DNA of 64,000 nt from a virus (Duplodnaviria; Heunggongvirae; Uroviricota; Caudoviricetes). The translations under genes and the position numbers were made by a program. Shown here piece after piece: positions 4,331 to 41,588 of this stretch (position 1 is its first letter; the number at the start of each line of letters is the position of its first letter). The notes under the pieces were generated by a model, which saw nothing but the letters and a program-made list of their open reading frames with translations, was not told the origin of the DNA and made no database searches. The DNA is taken from IMG/VR virus record IMGVR_UViG_2541047759_000001; one strand, 5' to 3'.

Positions 4331-4898
4331 TATCGCGCCCTCAACAATGAGTTTTGTGATGCGGTGCCTGGTGCCTCCAGGTGACGTTAACCAGTTAACA
4401 ATTAACGCCGGATACAGAGAATCCACCCATAACACTGTTTTTGGTTTTAACTGTTCCGCGTGCGCTTAGCCGCATTCACCGCATCACAAAATTCACTTTA
4501 AAAAGGGCGGCAGAGCAGTCACGGAGTAAAACTGATACCGCCAAACGTCACCAGAAAATTGATAACAGAGGGCGTTGCAGTGGGGTTGTCACTTAAGCGT
4601 ATGGTCAACCTGACAACCCGGTGTCCTCAACGGGGGAAGGAATAACCCCGCCATACTTACCGCCGCGCCATTTCGCGGATTGCCACAACCGGAAGCGCAC
4701 GGTCGACGAAAATTTAACGACAGGCTATCTATGAACCAGCTACCTCGCCGTGCGCTTTCGCGTTATGGTCTGACTTTTCAGGGAAATATCCTTTCAGTAA
4801 ACTGTCAGTGCCGGATGCTCACCCGTGTCCGGCGCACGCACTCCACCTCACCCGTGGAGAACTCCTTAATTACCAACCTTAGCTTCGTTGGTTATCTA

Positions 4899-5513: not shown

Positions 5514-5638
5514 GTTCTTACGCCTCGGGCTGGCTACTTAACCCCTGACCACTGCCTGGTAACTCGAAGTATTGCCCTGCATTCTGTAGGATGGGGTGAG
5601 GGAATGAATGAAGTTTAGAAAAACGAACTTTTCAGGTC

Positions 5639-10233: not shown

Positions 10234-10491
10234 ATACAGCGAACGCCATTGGTTTAGTTGGATATTTACTGTGCCGGACAAAAACGGTTTGCGGGGAAAT
10301 CTTAGTTAAGTAGAATGACTGCGGGTGCTTGAGGCTATCTGTCTCAGGCATGAACACCAAAAGGCAGATAGAGAAAAGCCCCAGTTAACATTACGCGTCC
10401 TGCAAGACGCTTAACATTAATCTGAGGCCATATCTATGCGACACATAGAGATTAGCCTCTTACGGACCGAAAGGTCAAGGAGAAGCAGGCT

Positions 10492-10647
10492 ATGAAGCAG
10501 CAAAAGGCGATGTTAATCGCCCTGATCGTCATCTGTTTAACCGTCATAGTGACGGCACTGGTAACGAGGAAAGACCTCTGCGAGGTACGAATCCGAACCG
10601 GCCAGACGGAGGTCGCTGTCTTCACAGCTTACGAACCTGAGGAGTAA
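10492..10647 (+). CDS. hok: Hok/Gef family type I toxin
   Basis: 51-aa translation MKQQKAMLIALIVICLTVIVTALVTRKDLCEVRIRTGQTEVAVFTAYEPEE matches the Hok/Gef family; structured leader upstream and terminator downstream. Confidence 0.85.
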   Translation: MKQQKAMLIALIVICLTVIVTALVTRKDLCEVRIRTGQTEVAVFTAYEPEE

Positions 10648-13489: not shown

Positions 13490-13565
13490 GGCCCTTTAGC
13501 TCAGTGGTGAGAGCGAGCGACTCATAATCGCCAGGTCGCTGGTTCAAATCCAGCAAGGGCCACCA
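13490..13565 (+). tRNA. ileZ: tRNA with CAU anticodon, tRNA-Ile2 (lysidine) type
   Basis: 76-nt cloverleaf with GGCCCTT/AAGGGCC acceptor stem, CTCATAA anticodon loop, GGTTCAAATCC T-loop, encoded CCA. Confidence 0.85.
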
Positions 13566-13665: not shown

Positions 13666-13739
13666 GCGTTGTTAGCTCAGCCGGACAGAGCAATTGCCTT
13701 CTAAGCAATCGGTCACTGGTTCGAATCCAGTACAGCGCG
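13666..13739 (+). tRNA. tRNA-Arg (UCU anticodon), phage-type
   Basis: Acceptor stem with one G-U pair, CTTCTAA anticodon loop, GGTTCGAATCC T-loop; no encoded CCA. Confidence 0.7.
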
Positions 13740-14206: not shown

Positions 14207-14653
14207 ATACATATCTGGATTATCACTTGTTACGGTAAAAAGTGATTGCTTACTGTTTTTGTGAGTGGCATTGCAGCAGCCGGATAATGTCAGTGCTGGC
14301 TGACGGTGTGCTGGTGGCGGGTGTGGTGGTTGTTGCTTTCCCGTTGCTGAAAAAGAAAACGCCAGACTGTTAGCCGGGTATCAGTTAGCGGGAGAAATTT
14401 TTAAATACTTCACAATTCAGGCGGTTGACTGTTGTCTGGTTTGCGGGGAGTTTGTTAAAAGAAACTGGCATGGTGAATCCCCCTGTGCGGAGGGGCAATC
14501 AGCGAGTAGGTATATGGGATAATCGCGGATTCAGGTGCTGGTACTGAATTCACCGGGAGGCACCCGGCACCATGCAATGGCACATAGCGCCACTCTCCAG
14601 CCCCTCTCCGGAGGGGCTGTTTATATTGATTTTGTCAGATGTGAGTAAACTCC

Positions 14654-36235: not shown

Positions 36236-36979
36236 ATGACACAGACTGAATCAGCGATTCTGGCGCATGCCCGGCGGTGTGCGCCTGCGGAGGCGTGCGG
36301 CTTCGTGATAAGCACGCCGGAGGGGGAGTGGTATATCCCTTGTGTGAATATTTCTGCAGAGCCGGAGGCGTATTTTCGTATCGCACCGGAAGACTGGCTG
36401 CGGGCAGAGATGCAGGGGGAGATTGTGGCGCTGGTCCACAGTCATCCCGGTGGTCTGCCCTGGCTGAGCGAGGCGGACCGGCGGCTGCAGATAAAGAGCG
36501 CACTGCCCTGGTGGCTGGTCTGCCGGGGGGCGATTCATAAGTTCCGCTGTGTGCCGCATCTCACCGGGCGGCGCTTTGAGCACGGGGTGACGGACTGTTA
36601 CACGCTGTTCCGGGACGCTTACCATCTGGCGGGGACTGAGATGCCGGACTTTCATCGTGAGGATGACTGGTGGCGTAACGGCCAGAATCTCTATCTTGAT
36701 AATCTGGAGGCCACAGGGCTGTATCAGGTGCCGTTGTCAGCGGCGCAGCCGGGCGATGTGCTGCTGTGCTGTTTTGGTTCATCGGTGCCGAACCATGCCG
36801 CCATTTACTGCGGCAACGGTGAGCTGCTTCACCATCTGCCTGAACAACTGAGTAAACGGGAGAGGTATTCCGAAAAATGGCAACGACGAACGCATTCTGT
36901 CTGGCGTCACCGCCACTGGCACGCATCTGCCTTCACGGGGATTTGCAACGATTTGGCCGCCGCCTCAGCCTGTATGTGA
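36236..36979 (+). CDS. K: Tail assembly protein K (JAB/MPN plus NlpC/P60 domains); 3' end overlaps I
   Basis: 'MTQTESAILAHARRCAPAE...HSHPGG' matches the lambda K N-terminus; ATG at 36236. Confidence 0.8.
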   Translation: MTQTESAILAHARRCAPAEACGFVISTPEGEWYIPCVNISAEPEAYFRIAPEDWLRAEMQGEIVALVHSHPGGLPWLSEADRRLQIKSALPWWLVCRGAIHKFRCVPHLTGRRFEHGVTDCYTLFRDAYHLAGTEMPDFHREDDWWRNGQNLYLDNLEATGLYQVPLSAAQPGDVLLCCFGSSVPNHAAIYCGNGELLHHLPEQLSKRERYSEKWQRRTHSVWRHRHWHASAFTGICNDLAAASACM

Positions 36980-37557
36980 ACACGGCAGCGGAAGCCATCC
37001 GTGCCCTGTCGTTACAGGTGCCGGGCTTTCGCCGTCAGATGAACGAAGGCTGGTACCAGATACGTATTGCCGGTGATGACACGGCACCGGAGGCGGTGTA
37101 CGCCCGTCTTCACGAACAGCTGGGTGAGGGAACGGTCATCCACATTGTGCCGCGACTGGCCGGAGCCGGAAAGGGCGGACTGCAGATTGTGCTGGGGGCG
37201 GCAGCCATCGTGGGCTCTTTCTTCACGGCCGGTGCCTCGATGGCGTTATGGGGTTCAGCCCTGGCAGCCGGTGGTTTTTCTGCCACCACGATGCTGTTTT
37301 CACTGGGGGCCAGCATGATACTGGGCGGTGTGGCACAGATGCTGGCCCCGAAGGCAAAAACACCGGATTACCGCGTAACGGATAACGGCAGACAGAACAC
37401 GTACTTTTCCTCGCTGGATAACATGATTGCCCAGGGGAACCCGATGCCGGTGCCTTACGGGGAAATGCTGGTTGGCTCCCGCCGTATATCCCAGGACATC
37501 AGCACCCGTGATGAAGGCGGGGGCGGAAAGGTCGTGGTTATCGGGCGGCAGGGGTAA
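36877..37557 (+). CDS. I: Tail assembly protein I
   Basis: 'ARICLHGDLQRFGRR...IRIAGDD...HIVPRLAGAG' matches lambda I. Confidence 0.85.
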   Translation: MATTNAFCLASPPLARICLHGDLQRFGRRLSLYVNTAAEAIRALSLQVPGFRRQMNEGWYQIRIAGDDTAPEAVYARLHEQLGEGTVIHIVPRLAGAGKGGLQIVLGAAAIVGSFFTAGASMALWGSALAAGGFSATTMLFSLGASMILGGVAQMLAPKAKTPDYRVTDNGRQNTYFSSLDNMIAQGNPMPVPYGEMLVGSRRISQDISTRDEGGGGKVVVIGRQG

Positions 37558-37560
37558 AAA

Positions 37561-37596
37561 GAATAAAAAAATCCCGCAGAGTTGCGGAGCTGCGGG
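37561..37596 (-). terminator. Minus-strand intrinsic terminator in the I-J gap
   Basis: CCCGCAG...CTGCGGG hairpin at 37573-37596 followed on the minus strand by TTTTTTATTC. Confidence 0.6.
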
Positions 37597-37656
37597 AGCG
37601 TTACGAAGATCAACTATAGATAATTATTCTTATGTCACGACAAAAAAAATTAACGC
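37562..37656 (-). ncRNA. Candidate small RNA of about 95 nt, defined by a promoter and terminator
   Basis: Minus-strand TTCACA (plus 37685-37690), 16-bp spacer, TATAAT (plus 37663-37668), then the intrinsic terminator; no start codon in the transcript. Confidence 0.4.
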
Positions 37657-37760
37657 AGAGAAATTATAAGTGCCACAGGGATTTTGTGAAAATGTGAAGA
37701 TATTCAGAATTTTTATGCCATTACCGGTTTTAACCAACAGGATTATCGGTGGGCATGAAA

Positions 37761-37798
37761 GAAAACCCCGGTATCTGCTGATACCGGGGTTTCTCTTT
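37761..37798. terminator. Bidirectional hairpin terminator
   Basis: CCCCGGTATC...GATACCGGGG stem flanked by T-rich runs on both strands. Confidence 0.55.
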
Positions 37799-37895
37799 AG
37801 CATGGCAGAAATGTGTTTCATGCTTTTCGGGCGAAGGATATCCGACTTCTGTACGGAATGGCAAGTGGCGGTTAATTTATTCAGGGGAAGGCTGT

Positions 37896-40800
37896 ATGGG
37901 AAAAGGTGGCGGTAAGGCACACACGCCTCGTGAGGCGAAGGATAATCTCAAATCCACGCAGATGATGAGTGTGATTGATGCGATTGGTGAGGGACCGATA
38001 GAAGGTCCGGTGAAGGGACTGCAGAGTATCCTGGTGAACAAAACCCCGCTGACGGACACGGACGGTAATCCCGTGATACACGGTGTGACCGCGGTCTGGC
38101 GTGCCGGGGAGCAGGAGCAGACACCACCGGAAGGCTTTGAGTCCTCCGGAGCTGAAACCGGACTGGGCGTGGAAGTGACGAAGGCAAAACCGGTGACGCG
38201 CACCATTACGTCCGCGAACATTGACCGCCTGCGGGTTACCTTCGGGGTGCAGTCACTGGTGCAGACCACGTCAAGGGGCGACCGTAATCCTTCCTCTGTC
38301 CGGATTCTGATTCAGTTACAGCGTAATGGCCGCTGGGTGACGGAAAAGGACGTCACCATTAACGGCAAGACCACCTCACAGTTCCTGGCCTCGGTGATTC
38401 TGGATAATCTGCCTCCCCGGCCCTTTAACATCCGGATGGTCAGGGAGACGGCGGACAGCACCACGGACCAGCTGCAGAATAAGACGCTGTGGTCGTCATA
38501 CACCGAAATCATCGATGTGAAACAGTGCTACCCGAACACGGCCATTGTGGGGCTGCAGGTGGATGCGGAGCAGTTCGGCGGCCAGCAGATGACGGTGAAC
38601 TACCATATCCGCGGTCGCATCATCCAGGTGCCGTCAAACTATGACCCGGAAAAACGCACGTACAGTGGTATCTGGGACGGCAGTCTGAAACCGGCATACA
38701 GCAACAACCCGGCCTGGTGCCTGTGGGACATGCTGACTCACCCGCGCTACGGCATGGGAAAACGTCTGGGGGCGGCGGATGTGGACAAGTGGGCGCTGTA
38801 TGCCATCGGGCAGTACTGCGACCAGACGGTCCCGGATGGTTTCGGGGGGACCGAGCCGCGGATGACCTTTAATGCGTACCTGGCACAACAGCGTAAGGCG
38901 TGGGACGTTCTCAGTGATTTCTGCTCTGCGATGCGCTGTATGCCGGTATGGAACGGTCAGACGCTGACGTTCGTTCAGGACCGCCCGTCGGATGTGGTGT
39001 GGCCGTACACCAACAGCGATGTGGTGGTGGATGATAACGGCGTGGGGTTCCGCTACAGCTTCAGTGCCCTGAAGGACCGGCACACGGCGGTGGAGGTGAA
39101 TTACACCGACCCGCAGAACGGCTGGCAGACCTCCACGGAACTGGTGGAAGACCCGGAAGCCATACTGCGCTACGGACGCAACCTGCTGAAGATGGACGCG
39201 TTCGGCTGTACCAGCCGCGGTCAGGCCCACCGTGCCGGGCTGTGGGTGATAAAGACCGAACTGCTGGAAACGCAGACGGTGGATTTCACGCTCGGGTCAC
39301 AGGGGCTGCGTCACACACCCGGTGACATCATTGAAATCTGTGATAACGACTATGCCGGAACCATGACCGGCGGACGTGTCCTGTCCATCGATGCCGCCAG
39401 CCGTACCCTGACGCTGGACCGGGAGGTGACACTGCCGGAGACCGGCACGGCCACTGTTAATCTGATTAACGGCAGCGGTAAGCCGGCGAGCGTGGCCATC
39501 ACCGCACACCCCGCGCCTGACCGGATACAGGTCAGCACCCTGCCGGATGGTGTGGAGACATACGGTGTGTGGGGACTCTCCCTGCCGTCACTGCGCCGTC
39601 GCCTGTTCCGCTGTGTCTCCATCCGGGAAAACACGGACGGCACCTTTGCCATCACGGCGGTGCAGCACGTACCGGAAAAAGAAGCCATCGTGGATAACGG
39701 TGCCCGCTTTGAGCCGCAGTCAGGCTCCCTGAACAGCGTCATCCCACCGGCAGTACAGCACCTGACGGTGGAGGTGAGCGCAGCTGACGGCCAGTATCTG
39801 GCGCAGGCTAAATGGGACACGCCGCGGGTGGTGAAGGGCGTGCGCTTCAGTCTGCGCCTGACCAGTGGTAAGGGAACGGATGCCAGACTGGTGACCACCG
39901 CCATCACCGCAGACACGGAGCACCGTTTCAGTGGCCTGCCACTGGGGGAATACACCCTGACGGTGCGGGCGATAAACAGTTATGGCCAGCAGGGTGAACC
40001 TGCCACCACCACCTTCCGGATTAACGCACCTGCAAAACCCGCCACCATTGAGCTGACGCCGGGGTATTTTCAGATAACGGCGGTCCCGCGTCTTGCGGTG
40101 TATGATCCGACGATACAGTTTGAATTCTGGTTCTCAGAAAAACGCATCACGAACACGGCACAGGTGGAAAAATCTGCCCGTTATCTGGGGTCCGGCAGTC
40201 AGTGGACTGTCCAGGGGAGCCGGATTAAGCCGGGGACGGATTTCTGGTTTTACGTGCGAAGCGTCAACCTGGTGGGAAAATCTGCTTTTGTGGAAGCCAG
40301 CGGGCAGCCCAGCAATGATGGTGAAGGGTATCTGGAAATTTTCCGGGGGCTGATAGATGAGACGCTTCTGGGTCAGGCACTGAAAGAGCGCATTGATGCT
40401 TCAGCGCTGCGTACGGAGGTCACGCAACTGGAAGAAGACATCCGTCAGCGGATGGACACGGATATCGCAGAAGTGACCCGGAAAATCGGGGAGGCGGAAA
40501 ACAGCCTCACGCAGCTGGTTGCGAAAAAGAATGAGGACCAGACACTGGCCATCGCGCAGATGAGCCAGAAAGTGGACCGGGTTAGCAGTGAAATCTCACA
40601 GACTGTCAGCCAGGGGCAGTCAGAAAACGCCCGACAGATAGCACAGGTCCGCCAGTACGTGGATAAAAAAGGGAGTGAAATTACCTCGACCACGGATAAA
40701 AAACTGGGTGACCAGGCCGTGACCATACAGCAAATCCAGCGGGTTCAGTCAGACACGCGCAATGAGCTGAATGCCATGTATATGCTGAAGGTGCAGAAAA

Positions 40801-41588
40801 CAAAAAACGGTATTCCCTATGTGGCCGGGATTGGCGTGGGGATTGAGGATGTTGATGGTCAGACCCTGAGTAACATTCTGCTGCAGGCTGACCGTATCGC
40901 GATGATTACCCCGGAGAATGGCAACACCACGCCGCTGTTTGTGGCGCAGGGGAATCAGCTGTTCATGAACGACGTGTTCCTGAAGCGACTGTTTGCGGTG
41001 AGCATCACGTCATCCGGCAATCCTCCGACGTTTTCCCTGACGCCGGATGGCAGGCTGACAGCCCGCAATGCGGATATCAGTGGAGCCATCACGGCGAATA
41101 CCGGCACGCTCAATAATGTCACCATTAACGAGAACTGTGTCATCAGAGGGAAACTGTCTGCAAACCAGATTGAAGGCGATCTCGTTAAAACAGTGGGTAA
41201 GGCTTTCCCCCGTGACTCCCGTGCACCGAAGCGTTGGCCATCAGGAACCATTACCGTCAGGGTTTATGACGATCAGCCGTTTAACCGGCAGATTGTTATT
41301 CCGGCGGTGGCTTTCAGCGGTGCCAGACATGAGCGGGAGAACAGCGATACTTATTCGTCATGCCGCCTGATAGTGAAGAAAAACGGTGCTGAAATTTATA
41401 ACCGTACCGCGATGGATAATACGCTGGTTTACAGTGGTGTTATTGATATGCCTGCTGGTCGCGGCCACATGACGCTGGAGTTTTCTGTATCAGCATGGTG
41501 GGTAAATGGCTGGTATCCCACAGCAAGTATCAGCGATTTGCTGGTTGTTGTGATGAAGAAAGCCACTGCAGGCATCACGATTAGCTGA
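37896..41588 (+). CDS. J: Central tail fiber / host specificity protein J
   Basis: 1230 aa; N-terminus '[39 protein letters not shown]' matches lambda J. Confidence 0.9.

What the first reader, a model, noticed from the sequence alone, without database searches (positions are those of the whole stretch)
37558..37895. Candidate small RNA in a 340-bp AT-rich insert between tail genes I and J
I and J are normally adjacent. The insert has a minus-strand sigma70-like promoter (TTCACA, 16 bp, TATAAT) about 95 nt upstream of a strong minus-strand intrinsic terminator, with no start codon in between, plus a bidirectional hairpin terminator. This is a classic site for a prophage-encoded regulatory RNA.
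Basis: seen in the sequence. Interest (0 to 1): 0.55.

Follow-up and report, generated by a model that had tools for sequence, protein, structure and literature searches.

The report
Divergent PasB-family prophage small RNA gene
The AT-rich spacer between the prophage tail genes I and J holds a real small-RNA gene, a divergent copy of the PasB / EcOnc22 family already shown by experiment in pathogenic E. coli, so the finding is correct but not new in kind.

Summary
A 338-bp AT-rich spacer separates gpI (36877-37557) from gpJ (37896-41588). On the minus strand it carries the only 11-of-12 sigma-70 promoter match in the whole 64-kb window. A 92-nt ATG-free stretch follows, then an 8-bp G+C-rich hairpin and seven U. 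A second, very stable hairpin lies upstream of the promoter.

It is not a new kind of element. PasB of EPEC E2348/69 (Northern-verified, Hfq-dependent, 37 RIL-seq interactions) lies at the same site, on the same strand and in the same orientation. EcOnc22/23/24 of EHEC Sakai (about 85 nt, destabilised without Hfq) map to the same spacer.

A covariance model built from 16 other alleles finds the window element full length (72.9 bits, E = 3.5e-12). The window allele is only about 73% identical to PasB. The published BLAST survey settings would miss it. It occurs in about 28 of 5,426 complete E. coli genomes, while 1,854 genomes carry some family member, none annotated in the rows listed.

The promoter block, an A-R-N run, a core (U/G)AUCUUC and the terminator are conserved. 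The body and the terminator loop are mosaic.

Most likely function: an Hfq-dependent trans-acting sRNA made by the lysogen, with allele-specific targets. Those targets are unknown.

The parts
37565..37656 (-). Predicted PasB-family small RNA, 92 nt, from the promoter-predicted +1 (G at 37656) to the end of the U tract. By alignment to the annotated PasB 5' end, the mature 5' end could instead lie near 37641.
   Evidence: Covariance model R1, built from 16 other alleles, hits 37565-37656 minus strand at 72.9 bits, E = 3.5e-12, model positions 1-97 of 97. Alignment to E2348/69 PasB. Fold -21 kcal/mol, z = -2.4.
37663..37690 (-). Sigma-70-type promoter: -35 TTCACA (37690-37685), 16-nt spacer, -10 TATAAT (37668-37663).
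   Evidence: Scan gives 11 of 12 matches. It is the only such site in 64 kb, and 23 of 2000 spacer shuffles reach it. In all 39 promoter-anchored alleles the last five bases of the -10, ATAAT, are kept (TATAAT, AATAAT, GATAAT; one allele has a 1-nt deletion). BLAST-retrieved and terminator-anchored members have weaker hexamers such as TATCAT and GACAGT. Mean -10 identity to the divergent members is 0.81.
37693..37708 (-). Conserved dyad-like block TCTGA-N6-TCACA just upstream of and touching the -35, centred at about -44.5. Candidate binding site for an activator; it resembles a CRP site.
   Evidence: This is the most conserved part of the upstream region, with 0.91 identity to BLAST-retrieved divergent members. 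In the terminator-anchored sample, which is unbiased for the promoter, both half-sites are invariant in every copy that keeps a promoter. The 6-nt spacer varies: ATATCT, ATTTCT, AACTCT, AATTCT, TTTTCT, GTTTAT. The identity of the factor is inference only.
37623..37631 (-). A-R-N run AAGAAUAAU (RNA positions 26-34). Candidate contact for the distal face of Hfq.
   Evidence: All 39 distinct alleles have a run of 3 to 7 A-R-N triplets starting at RNA positions 21-33, even though this segment is poorly conserved in sequence. For the window allele P is about 0.03 against shuffles.
37605..37615 (-). Conserved core AGUUGAUCUUC (RNA positions 42-52). Candidate seed, or part of it.
   Evidence: Identity to divergent members is 0.82, against 0.46 for the body before it and 0.27 for the linker after it. 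Most alleles carry [TC][AG]ATCTT, but two tandem-array copies read GTTAGTCAAC instead. Zhu et al. place the proposed PasB seed in the single-stranded stretch just upstream of the terminator.
37565..37597 (-). Intrinsic terminator and probable Hfq proximal-face module: 8-bp stem (37597-37590 / 37579-37572), 10-nt loop, U7 (37571-37565).
   Evidence: Stem arms are 0.98-1.00 identical and the U tract 0.95 across divergent members, while the loop is 0.41. The 7 consensus pairs never vary, so there is no covariation either for or against the stem.
37758..37798 (.). Strong hairpin (stem 37763-37775 / 37780-37792) with T-rich runs after it on both strands. Terminator-like in both directions; a probable insulator between the sRNA promoter and J.
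   Evidence: Fold energies are -32.2 and -28.7 kcal/mol, z = -6.6 and -5.9. It is part of a 189-nt 'long arm' found in roughly half of the 120 promoter-anchored IMG/VR loci. Other family members carry a different hairpin at the same place, CAGGCAYCC..GGRTGCCTG followed by TTGTTTTTG.
36877..37557 (+). Tail assembly gene I (context).
   Evidence: Pfam Lambda_tail_I, E = 5.7e-16.
37896..41588 (+). Tail tip / host specificity gene J (context).
   Evidence: Pfam FNIII-A_GpJ, Phage-tail_3, Ig_J, Phage_Tail_Tip and Ig_GpJ_C.

Best explanation
The spacer carries a stand-alone small-RNA gene of the PasB / EcOnc22 family, a 'moron' inserted between tail genes I and J and read antisense to the late operon.

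In the lysogen the late operon is silent. Host RNA polymerase with sigma-70 starts at about 37656 on the minus strand and stops at the hairpin plus U7 at 37565. The product is an RNA of roughly 80-92 nt.

The U tail, terminator hairpin and internal A-R-N run bind Hfq. The single-stranded stretch just upstream of the terminator, which includes the conserved GAUCUUC core, pairs with host or island mRNAs in trans.

The segments flanking the core differ from PasB (AUCUAUAGUUGAUCUUCGUAAC here, against CUCCUUCACAUUGAUCUUCAUUUGUC in PasB). This allele therefore probably has a partly different target set.

Shown here: the anatomy, homology, conservation pattern and distribution. Shown by others for homologues: expression, size, Hfq dependence and in vivo RNA partners. 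Inferred: expression of this allele, its 5' end, its seed and its targets.
For: - Same site, strand and orientation as PasB.
- Covariance model from 16 independent alleles: 72.9 bits, E = 3.5e-12, full length, and the only copy in the window.
- Promoter 11 of 12, unique in 64 kb.
- Terminator arms and U tract 0.95-1.0 conserved. Upstream block 0.91, -10 hexamer 0.81 and core 0.82, against body 0.46, linker 0.27 and loop 0.41. This is the pattern expected of a transcribed sRNA gene, not of neutral spacer.
- A-R-N run in all 39 alleles.
- PasB: log2 fold change in the hfq mutant of -6.8 and -2.4; it is the second RNA in nearly all of its chimeras; partners include bfpB, bfpI, ftsZ, galE, ler, perB and rplX.
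- EcOnc22: about 85 nt and destabilised without Hfq. It maps inside the Sp15 family member after calibrating coordinates with AgvB.
- The family occurs in 1,854 of 5,426 complete E. coli genomes, up to 11 places per genome, and in inducible Stx phages.
Against: - No transcript data exist for this allele or for any strain that carries it.
- Only the terminator helix is shared across the family, and it never varies, so there is no covariation support.
- In-silico duplexes of PasB, the Sakai allele and the window allele with three RIL-seq partners (ftsZ, galE, ler) were no better than shuffled RNAs. The seed is therefore not established.
- No phenotype or validated target has been published for any family member.
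- The published PasB 5' end lies 15 nt downstream of the promoter-predicted start, so the true 5' end is uncertain.
Confidence: 0.75

Rival explanations
1. Cis-antisense regulator. The RNA's real partner is the late tail-operon transcript, to which it is perfectly complementary across the I-J spacer. Pairing would trigger cleavage or change the I:J expression ratio, damping leaky tail-gene expression in lysogens or timing J synthesis after induction.
For: The RNA is antisense to the late operon in every family member. The location is strictly conserved and abuts the I stop codon. No other site complementary to the core exists within the 64-kb window.
Against: The RNA overlaps neither the I coding sequence (ends 37557) nor the J ribosome-binding site or start (37896), and 239 nt separate its 5' end from J. 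PasB forms Hfq-bound chimeras with many unlinked mRNAs. The body is highly variable, which perfect cis pairing does not explain. Some phages carry a promoterless copy behind sodC, or up to three tandem paralogues.
Confidence: 0.1
2. Sponge or anti-sRNA. Like AgvB and AsxR, the RNA mainly sequesters a core-genome sRNA on Hfq rather than acting on mRNAs.
For: It shows the same design principle of a conserved 3' module with variable upstream sequence and an internal A-R-N motif, as Tree et al. describe for AgvB and AsxR. PasB gives a chimera with the RNA next to pasA.
Against: There is no Rfam AgvB or AsxR match. The insertion site is different. In the activating-condition RIL-seq list the partners are nearly all mRNA coding regions. 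No complementary core sRNA has been identified for the window allele.
Confidence: 0.08
3. Inert remnant. This rare allele is a decayed or silent copy, and the signals merely survive from an ancestral gene, or serve only as a terminator/insulator between I and J.
For: The allele is rare, at 99% identity or more in about 28 records. Promoter-disrupted copies exist elsewhere, with IS or sodC insertions.
Against: In the window every functional module is intact, and the promoter is the best-matching version seen in the family (TATAAT with a 16-nt spacer). The U7 tail and stem are identical to those of the expressed homologues.
Confidence: 0.05
4. Small protein gene. The spacer encodes a peptide, either the 96-aa minus-strand ORF at 37630-37920 or the 81-aa plus-strand ORF at 37670-37915.
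For: Both ORFs are listed mechanically.
Against: Neither has a Pfam match. Both span the hairpin and the sRNA promoter. Natural variants of this arm differ by 1, 1, 5 and 47 nt, which would shift the reading frame. The arm is absent altogether from many family members.
Confidence: 0.02

Closest known systems
PasB (E2348CN_0006) of EPEC O127:H6 E2348/69, prophage PP6 (Pearl Mizrahi et al. 2021, PMC8550237; Zhu, Shabalina and Storz 2026 preprint)
   Same: Same I-J spacer, same antisense orientation, and the terminator abuts the I stop codon. The promoter block is nearly identical (a 25-nt exact match covering the dyad and the -35, plus TATAAT). The terminator stem and U7 are identical. Both share the core UUGAUCUUC and an A-R-N run at the same position.
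   Different: Overall identity of the promoter-defined RNAs is about 73%. Body, linker and terminator loop differ. blastn with word size 28 finds nothing, and with word size 11 aligns only the 33-nt terminator, so the published survey criteria (word 28, coverage above 75%) exclude this allele. The arm between the promoter and J is 189 nt with a different, larger hairpin, against 87 nt in E2348/69.
EcOnc22 / EcOnc23 / EcOnc24 of EHEC O157:H7 Sakai prophages Sp15, Sp14 and Sp11 (Tree et al. 2014, PMC4104026 table S2)
   Same: Hfq-CRAC peaks on the strand antisense to I and J, inside the I-J spacer. The Northern band is about 85 nt and is destabilised without Hfq. The covariance model hits Sp15 and Sp14 at 92.3 bits.
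   Different: A different allele, with body GAUGCCUGAAAAAUAACUCCAUAACGUUAAUCUUCAUCG and a weaker -10 (AATAAT). Placing the CRAC peak inside the RNA rests on my calibration of old against new Sakai coordinates (+137 to +146 at AgvB1). PMC8550237 table S6 lists no EHEC homologue for PasB.
AgvB / AsxR anti-sRNAs (Rfam RF02702, RF02703)
   Same: Prophage-borne, Hfq-binding, short, with a conserved 3' module and a variable targeting part. [quoted passage not shown]
   Different: A different site (downstream of PR', not in the tail operon), no sequence relationship, and no Rfam match in the window spacer.
DicF, also present in this window at 4505-4556 on the minus strand
   Same: A prophage-encoded, Hfq-dependent trans-acting sRNA. 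PasB, like DicF, gives Hfq chimeras with the ftsZ mRNA region.
   Different: An unrelated sequence and locus. DicF is processed from a longer transcript (my own knowledge), whereas this RNA has its own promoter.

Membership tests
PasB / EcOnc22 sRNA family (I-J intergenic sRNAs of lambdoid prophages) | Gene lies between tail genes I and J, antisense to them, with its terminator next to the I stop codon | tested here: met
   I ends at 37557, the RNA occupies 37565-37656 on the minus strand, and J starts at 37896. The layout is the same in E2348/69, Sakai Sp12, Sp14 and Sp15 and Stx phages.
PasB / EcOnc22 sRNA family (I-J intergenic sRNAs of lambdoid prophages) | Sequence and structure homology to known members over the whole RNA | tested here: met
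   Model R1, built from 16 alleles that exclude the window allele and its body class, scores 72.9 bits, E = 3.5e-12, positions 1-97 of 97. PasB itself scores 112.9 bits and the Sakai copies 92.3.
PasB / EcOnc22 sRNA family (I-J intergenic sRNAs of lambdoid prophages) | Own sigma-70 promoter and intrinsic terminator with a U tract of at least 6 | tested here: met
PasB / EcOnc22 sRNA family (I-J intergenic sRNAs of lambdoid prophages) | Accumulates as an RNA of about 80-90 nt | not testable with these tools
   The predicted length is 92 nt from the promoter, or about 77 nt if the 5' end matches the annotated PasB end. There are no expression data for this allele.
PasB / EcOnc22 sRNA family (I-J intergenic sRNAs of lambdoid prophages) | Binds Hfq and depends on it for stability | not testable with these tools
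   Only sequence features are available: a U7 tail after a G+C-rich stem, and the A-R-N run AAGAAUAAU.
PasB as operationally defined in the 2026 survey (blastn, word size 28, query coverage above 75%) | Detectable with the E2348/69 PasB query under those settings | tested here: not met
   No hit at word size 28. At word size 11 or 7 only 33 of 83 nt align, at 90.9% identity. The element is therefore a divergent relative, not one of the near-identical PasB variants described there.
Any Rfam 15 family, including AgvB RF02702 and AsxR RF02703 | Match at or near the gathering score | tested here: not met
   Nothing on the minus strand of the spacer. The best hit in the region was a sub-threshold plus-strand match driven by the terminator-like hairpin (SSRC34_2, 27.3 bits against a threshold of 48). 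PasB did not appear among the Rfam families matched.
Cis-antisense RNA | Overlaps the coding sequence or translation start of the opposite-strand gene | tested here: not met
   The RNA lies wholly within the intercistronic spacer, 8 nt from the I stop codon and 239 nt from the J start.

The most novel reading that the evidence does not exclude
The I-J junction of lambdoid prophages is a recombining sRNA cassette site.

An invariant scaffold is kept: a TCTGA-N6-TCACA operator for an unidentified (CRP-like?) activator, the RNA's 5' leader (GCGUUA plus a U run), an A-R-N Hfq motif, an AUCUU core and a fixed terminator stem. The seed-flanking modules and terminator loops are shuffled between phages. 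The gene can be multiplied to three tandem paralogues, or captured behind a sodC moron.

On this reading each allele, including the rare one in this window, rewires a different set of host mRNAs. The published picture of PasB as a nearly invariant sRNA greatly understates the family: 1,854 of 5,426 complete E. coli genomes carry a member, at 5,540 places.
Probability: 0.35. Interest if true: 0.5.

Novelty: new member of a known kind. Interest (0 to 1): 0.3.

Why it matters
The practical gain is annotation. In the rows listed, the sRNA module had no annotated feature under it in RefSeq. No Rfam model matched it. A third of complete E. coli genomes carry at least one copy.

Two experimentally detected RNAs, PasB in EPEC and EcOnc22-24 in EHEC, appear to be the same family; the PasB paper's table lists no EHEC homologue.

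The family is much more diverse than the word-28 BLAST survey showed. If alleles differ in targets, prophage content would change host post-transcriptional regulation strain by strain. That would include urinary and commensal B2 strains such as ABU 83972, which carry the window allele.

No function is known for any member, so biological importance remains open.

Tried and rejected
- **Rfam**, E-value and gathering modes: no family matched the element.
- **Covariation on the family alignment:** only the terminator is shared, and its 7 pairs never vary, so this is uninformative. The window-specific closing helix GCGUUA/UAACGC is not kept in PasB.
- **Target and seed test:** RNAduplex of PasB, the Sakai allele and the window allele against the RIL-seq partner regions of ftsZ, galE and ler. 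Global duplexes were unrealistic (an earlier script timed out). Windowed local duplexes gave z between -0.8 and +0.7 against shuffles for the 8 pairs completed before the time limit. The PasB-ler pairing (CCUUCACA and AUCUUC against GAAGAU..UGUGAAGG) looks plausible but is not significant.
- **Complement of the window core** searched in the 64-kb window: it matches only the gene itself.
- **Coding hypothesis:** rejected.
- **Tree et al. table S2**, checked for a CRAC peak in the Sakai Sp12 I-J spacer, which carries the PasB-2 allele with the window-type long arm: none listed.
- **Literature searches** for other names or functions of the family found only the two Pas papers and one review listing EcOnc22 with unknown targets.
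- **CRP assignment of the conserved dyad:** considered but not adopted. The left half-site always has C where CRP prefers G, and the centre at -44.5 is not the canonical -41.5.

Full report
**1. The observation**

The window carries a lambdoid tail module. ORF 36877-37557 is Lambda_tail_I, and ORF 37896-41588 has the full set of GpJ domains. The two genes are separated by 338 bp. G+C in that spacer drops to 0.31-0.41, against 0.55-0.67 on either side. From my own knowledge, the I-J gap in phage lambda is about 60 bp, so this spacer is enlarged.

On the minus strand the scan finds TTCACA, a 16-nt spacer and TATAAT at 37690-37663, 11 of 12 matches. It also finds a terminator-like hairpin with a T run at 37588-37573. 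The promoter is the only match of at least 11 of 12 on either strand of the whole 64-kb window. Only 23 of 2000 shuffles of the AT-rich spacer produce one.

Folding the 92 nt from the predicted start (G at 37656) to the end of the U tract (37565) gives an 8-bp stem UCCCGCAG/CUGCGGGA with a 10-nt loop, followed by U7. The total is -21 kcal/mol, z = -2.4. On the plus strand the same hairpin is not followed by T residues.

The RNA has no AUG. Its one GUG and two UUG are dead ends, as read from the sequence.

Its stem is 37763-37775 / 37780-37792, with energies of -32 and -29 kcal/mol and z of about -6. T-rich runs follow it on both strands.

**2. What it is**

A literature search turned up PasB, one of five 'pathogenicity-associated' sRNAs found by Hfq RIL-seq in EPEC E2348/69. 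Table S6 of that paper places PasB at NC_011601 1466343-1466261 on the minus strand, 83 nt, in prophage PP6. Its Northern probe is AATCCCGCAGTGATCGCGGAGCT. That probe nearly matches window 37571-37594.

The RefSeq record shows that PasB lies between the tail assembly protein (ending at 1466255) and gpJ (starting at 1466496). This is the same site, strand relationship and orientation as in the window.

Pairwise alignment shows the following:
- a nearly identical promoter block;
- an identical terminator stem and U tract;
- a shared UUGAUCUUC;
- divergence everywhere else.

The promoter-defined RNAs are about 73% identical.

**3. Independent membership test**

Two scans of IMG/VR were used to collect relatives. 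One was anchored on the promoter 25-mer. The other was anchored on the terminator, and so is unbiased for the promoter. BLAST hits in phage and E. coli collections added further members.

I built a covariance model from 16 alleles. These included PasB, the Stx-phage alleles and the VT1-Sakai allele. They excluded the window allele and every allele sharing its 5' body.

The model finds one hit in the window: 37565-37656 on the minus strand, 72.9 bits, E = 3.5e-12, covering model positions 1-97 of 97. Rfam has no model that matches.

**4. The EHEC link**

The same model hits the I-J spacers of Sakai prophages Sp15, Sp14 and Sp12.

Table S2 of Tree et al. lists three Hfq-CRAC peaks:
- EcOnc22, in Sp15, at 2902714-2902774 on the plus strand. 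The Northern band is about 85 nt and the RNA is destabilised in the hfq mutant.
- EcOnc23, in Sp14.
- EcOnc24, in Sp11.

Whichever Sakai coordinate version applies, the EcOnc22 and EcOnc23 peaks lie inside the 240-bp I-J spacers on the antisense strand.

I calibrated old against current coordinates using AgvB1. Its old peak is 1941783-1941835, and the Rfam hit in the current record is at 1941920-1941981. That gives an offset of +137 to +146. With this offset the peaks fall inside the model hits at 2902836-2902926 and 2676767-2676857.

So the family has been seen as an Hfq-dependent RNA in two pathotypes. This step is inferred from the coordinate calibration, not read from the papers. The PasB paper's table S6 names no EHEC homologue for PasB.

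**5. Conservation pattern**

I compared the window with the members retrieved by BLAST, which carry no promoter ascertainment bias.

| Segment | Identity to window |
|---|---|
| Terminator arms | 0.98-1.00 |
| U tract | 0.95 |
| Block upstream of the -35 | 0.91 |
| Core AGTTGATCTTC | 0.82 |
| -10 hexamer | 0.81 |
| 5' leader | 0.79 |
| Variable body | 0.46 |
| Terminator loop | 0.41 |
| Linker | 0.27 |

All 39 distinct alleles carry a run of 3 to 7 A-R-N triplets starting at RNA positions 21-33, although that segment is not conserved in sequence. [quoted passage not shown]

Across alleles, the body types, core variants and terminator-loop types occur in all combinations. For example, loop CTCCGCAACT occurs with both the GTCGTGA and the GCCCGAG bodies, and a loop ending in CCGCGATCA (CTCCGCGATCA or TTCCTGTCCGCGATCA) also occurs with both. 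The family is therefore mosaic.

The arm between the promoter and J is assorted independently. The 189-nt arm of the window also sits next to the PasB-2 allele in Sakai Sp12.

**6. Distribution**

The 161-nt promoter-plus-RNA module matches 1,854 of 5,426 complete E. coli genomes, at 5,540 places and up to 11 places per genome. No annotated feature lies under the match in any of the 12 rows listed.

The window allele, at 99% identity or more, is in about 28 records. These include ABU 83972 and other strains, most of them human isolates.

The published survey used blastn with word size 28 and coverage above 75%, and described PasB variants as differing by only a few nucleotides. Under those settings the window allele is not found.

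**7. Mechanism**

The best-supported reading is a lysogen-expressed, Hfq-dependent, trans-acting sRNA.

For PasB the published data show four things:
- strong loss in the hfq mutant (log2 fold change -6.8 and -2.4);
- a position as second RNA in nearly all of its chimeras;
- 37 interactions, including bfpB, bfpI, ftsZ, galE, ler, perB and rplX;
- higher expression in overnight static LB than in DMEM.

Zhu et al. propose that the seed lies just upstream of the terminator. That is where the conserved core sits. In the window allele the residues on both sides of the core differ from PasB, so a shifted target set is likely.

I could not confirm any seed by computation. Duplex predictions with three RIL-seq partners were no better than shuffles.

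A purely cis-antisense role is less likely, for three reasons. The RNA overlaps neither coding sequence nor the J start. The body is highly variable. PasB also has many unlinked partners.

**8. Promoter control (hypothesis)**

In every family copy that keeps its own promoter, the motif TCTGA-N6-TCACA is invariant in both half-sites. Its 6-nt spacer and the -35/-10 hexamers vary.

The motif resembles a CRP site (AAAtTcTGA-N6-TCACATTT). PasB is lower in glucose-rich DMEM, which would fit.

Two points count against CRP itself. The C in the left half is invariant, and the centre at -44.5 is non-canonical. I record it as a candidate activator site of unknown factor.

**9. Verdict**

The element belongs to a family already discovered by experiment. 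It is a new, divergent and rare member, with function unknown.

Noticed in passing
L162 316-1229; L156 4418-4980; L158 1-704: Some phage contigs carry three tandem, mutually divergent copies of the sRNA gene, each with its own promoter and terminator. In L162 the three copies fill a 914-bp spacer between gpI (ending at about 315) and gpJ (starting at 1230).
   Followed up: partly
L130 (Stx2a phage Stx2_EH1846, LC567840) and about 13 IMG/VR loci such as L140, L165 and L178: A sodC (Cu/Zn superoxide dismutase) moron with its own terminator hairpin sits on the sRNA strand, immediately upstream of the RNA body. It replaces the sRNA promoter and the dyad. The RNA copy there is promoterless and could only be made by read-through.
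   Followed up: partly
window 37693-37708 (minus strand TCTGAATATCTTCACA): A dyad-like block with invariant half-sites and a variable 6-nt spacer across the family, centred at about -44.5. It resembles a CRP site but with a non-canonical left half and position. PasB is reported to be higher in overnight LB than in DMEM.
   Followed up: partly
window 37758-37798, and L063: The big hairpin lies in a 47-bp segment flanked by the imperfect direct repeats GCATGAAAGAAA and GCATGGCAGAAA. One IMG/VR contig (L063) lacks exactly this segment. The hairpin may be a small inserted or deletable module.
   Followed up: no
short-arm family members, e.g. L001 1905-1960 and L133 1242-1265: Members without the window's long arm carry a different hairpin at the same place, CAGGCAYCC-loop-GGRTGCCTG followed by TTGTTTTTG. 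This reads as a terminator for the late-operon strand. It shows paired changes (CACCC/GGGTG against CATCC/GGATG). A terminator-like hairpin just upstream of J is therefore a constant feature of the locus.
   Followed up: partly
window 37835-37864, minus strand: A weak promoter-like site, TTGCCA-18-TATCCT (9 of 12 matches), lies about 35 nt upstream of the big hairpin. It could give a second short minus-strand transcript ending at that hairpin. There is no supporting evidence, and no CRAC peak is listed for the identical arm in Sakai Sp12.
   Followed up: no
L032, L122 (IS629-like) and L018: Insertion sequences interrupt the locus in some contigs. An IS629/IS1203-like end is inserted between the -35 and the -10 of the sRNA promoter (L032, L122). 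Another insertion sequence lies in the long arm (L018).
   Followed up: no
L122 (Asaia platycodi JCM 25414 contig, 546 bp) and L124 (Streptomyces flavalbus contig, 3408 bp): Genome assemblies of unrelated bacteria contain short contigs with this E. coli prophage spacer. These are most likely contamination of those assemblies.
   Followed up: no
window 4505-4556 (-), 10323-10494 (+), 13490-13562 (+), 13666-13739 (+), 14439-14628 (+): Other RNA genes of the same prophage reach Rfam gathering scores: DicF, sok, two tRNAs and STnc100.
   Followed up: no
L136 21631-21728 (Sakai Sp12, NC_002695.2 2217630-2217727): Sakai also carries the PasB-2 allele (one nucleotide different from PasB), joined to the window-type long arm. 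Tree et al. list no Hfq peak there, although the Sp15, Sp14 and Sp11 alleles were detected.
   Followed up: partly
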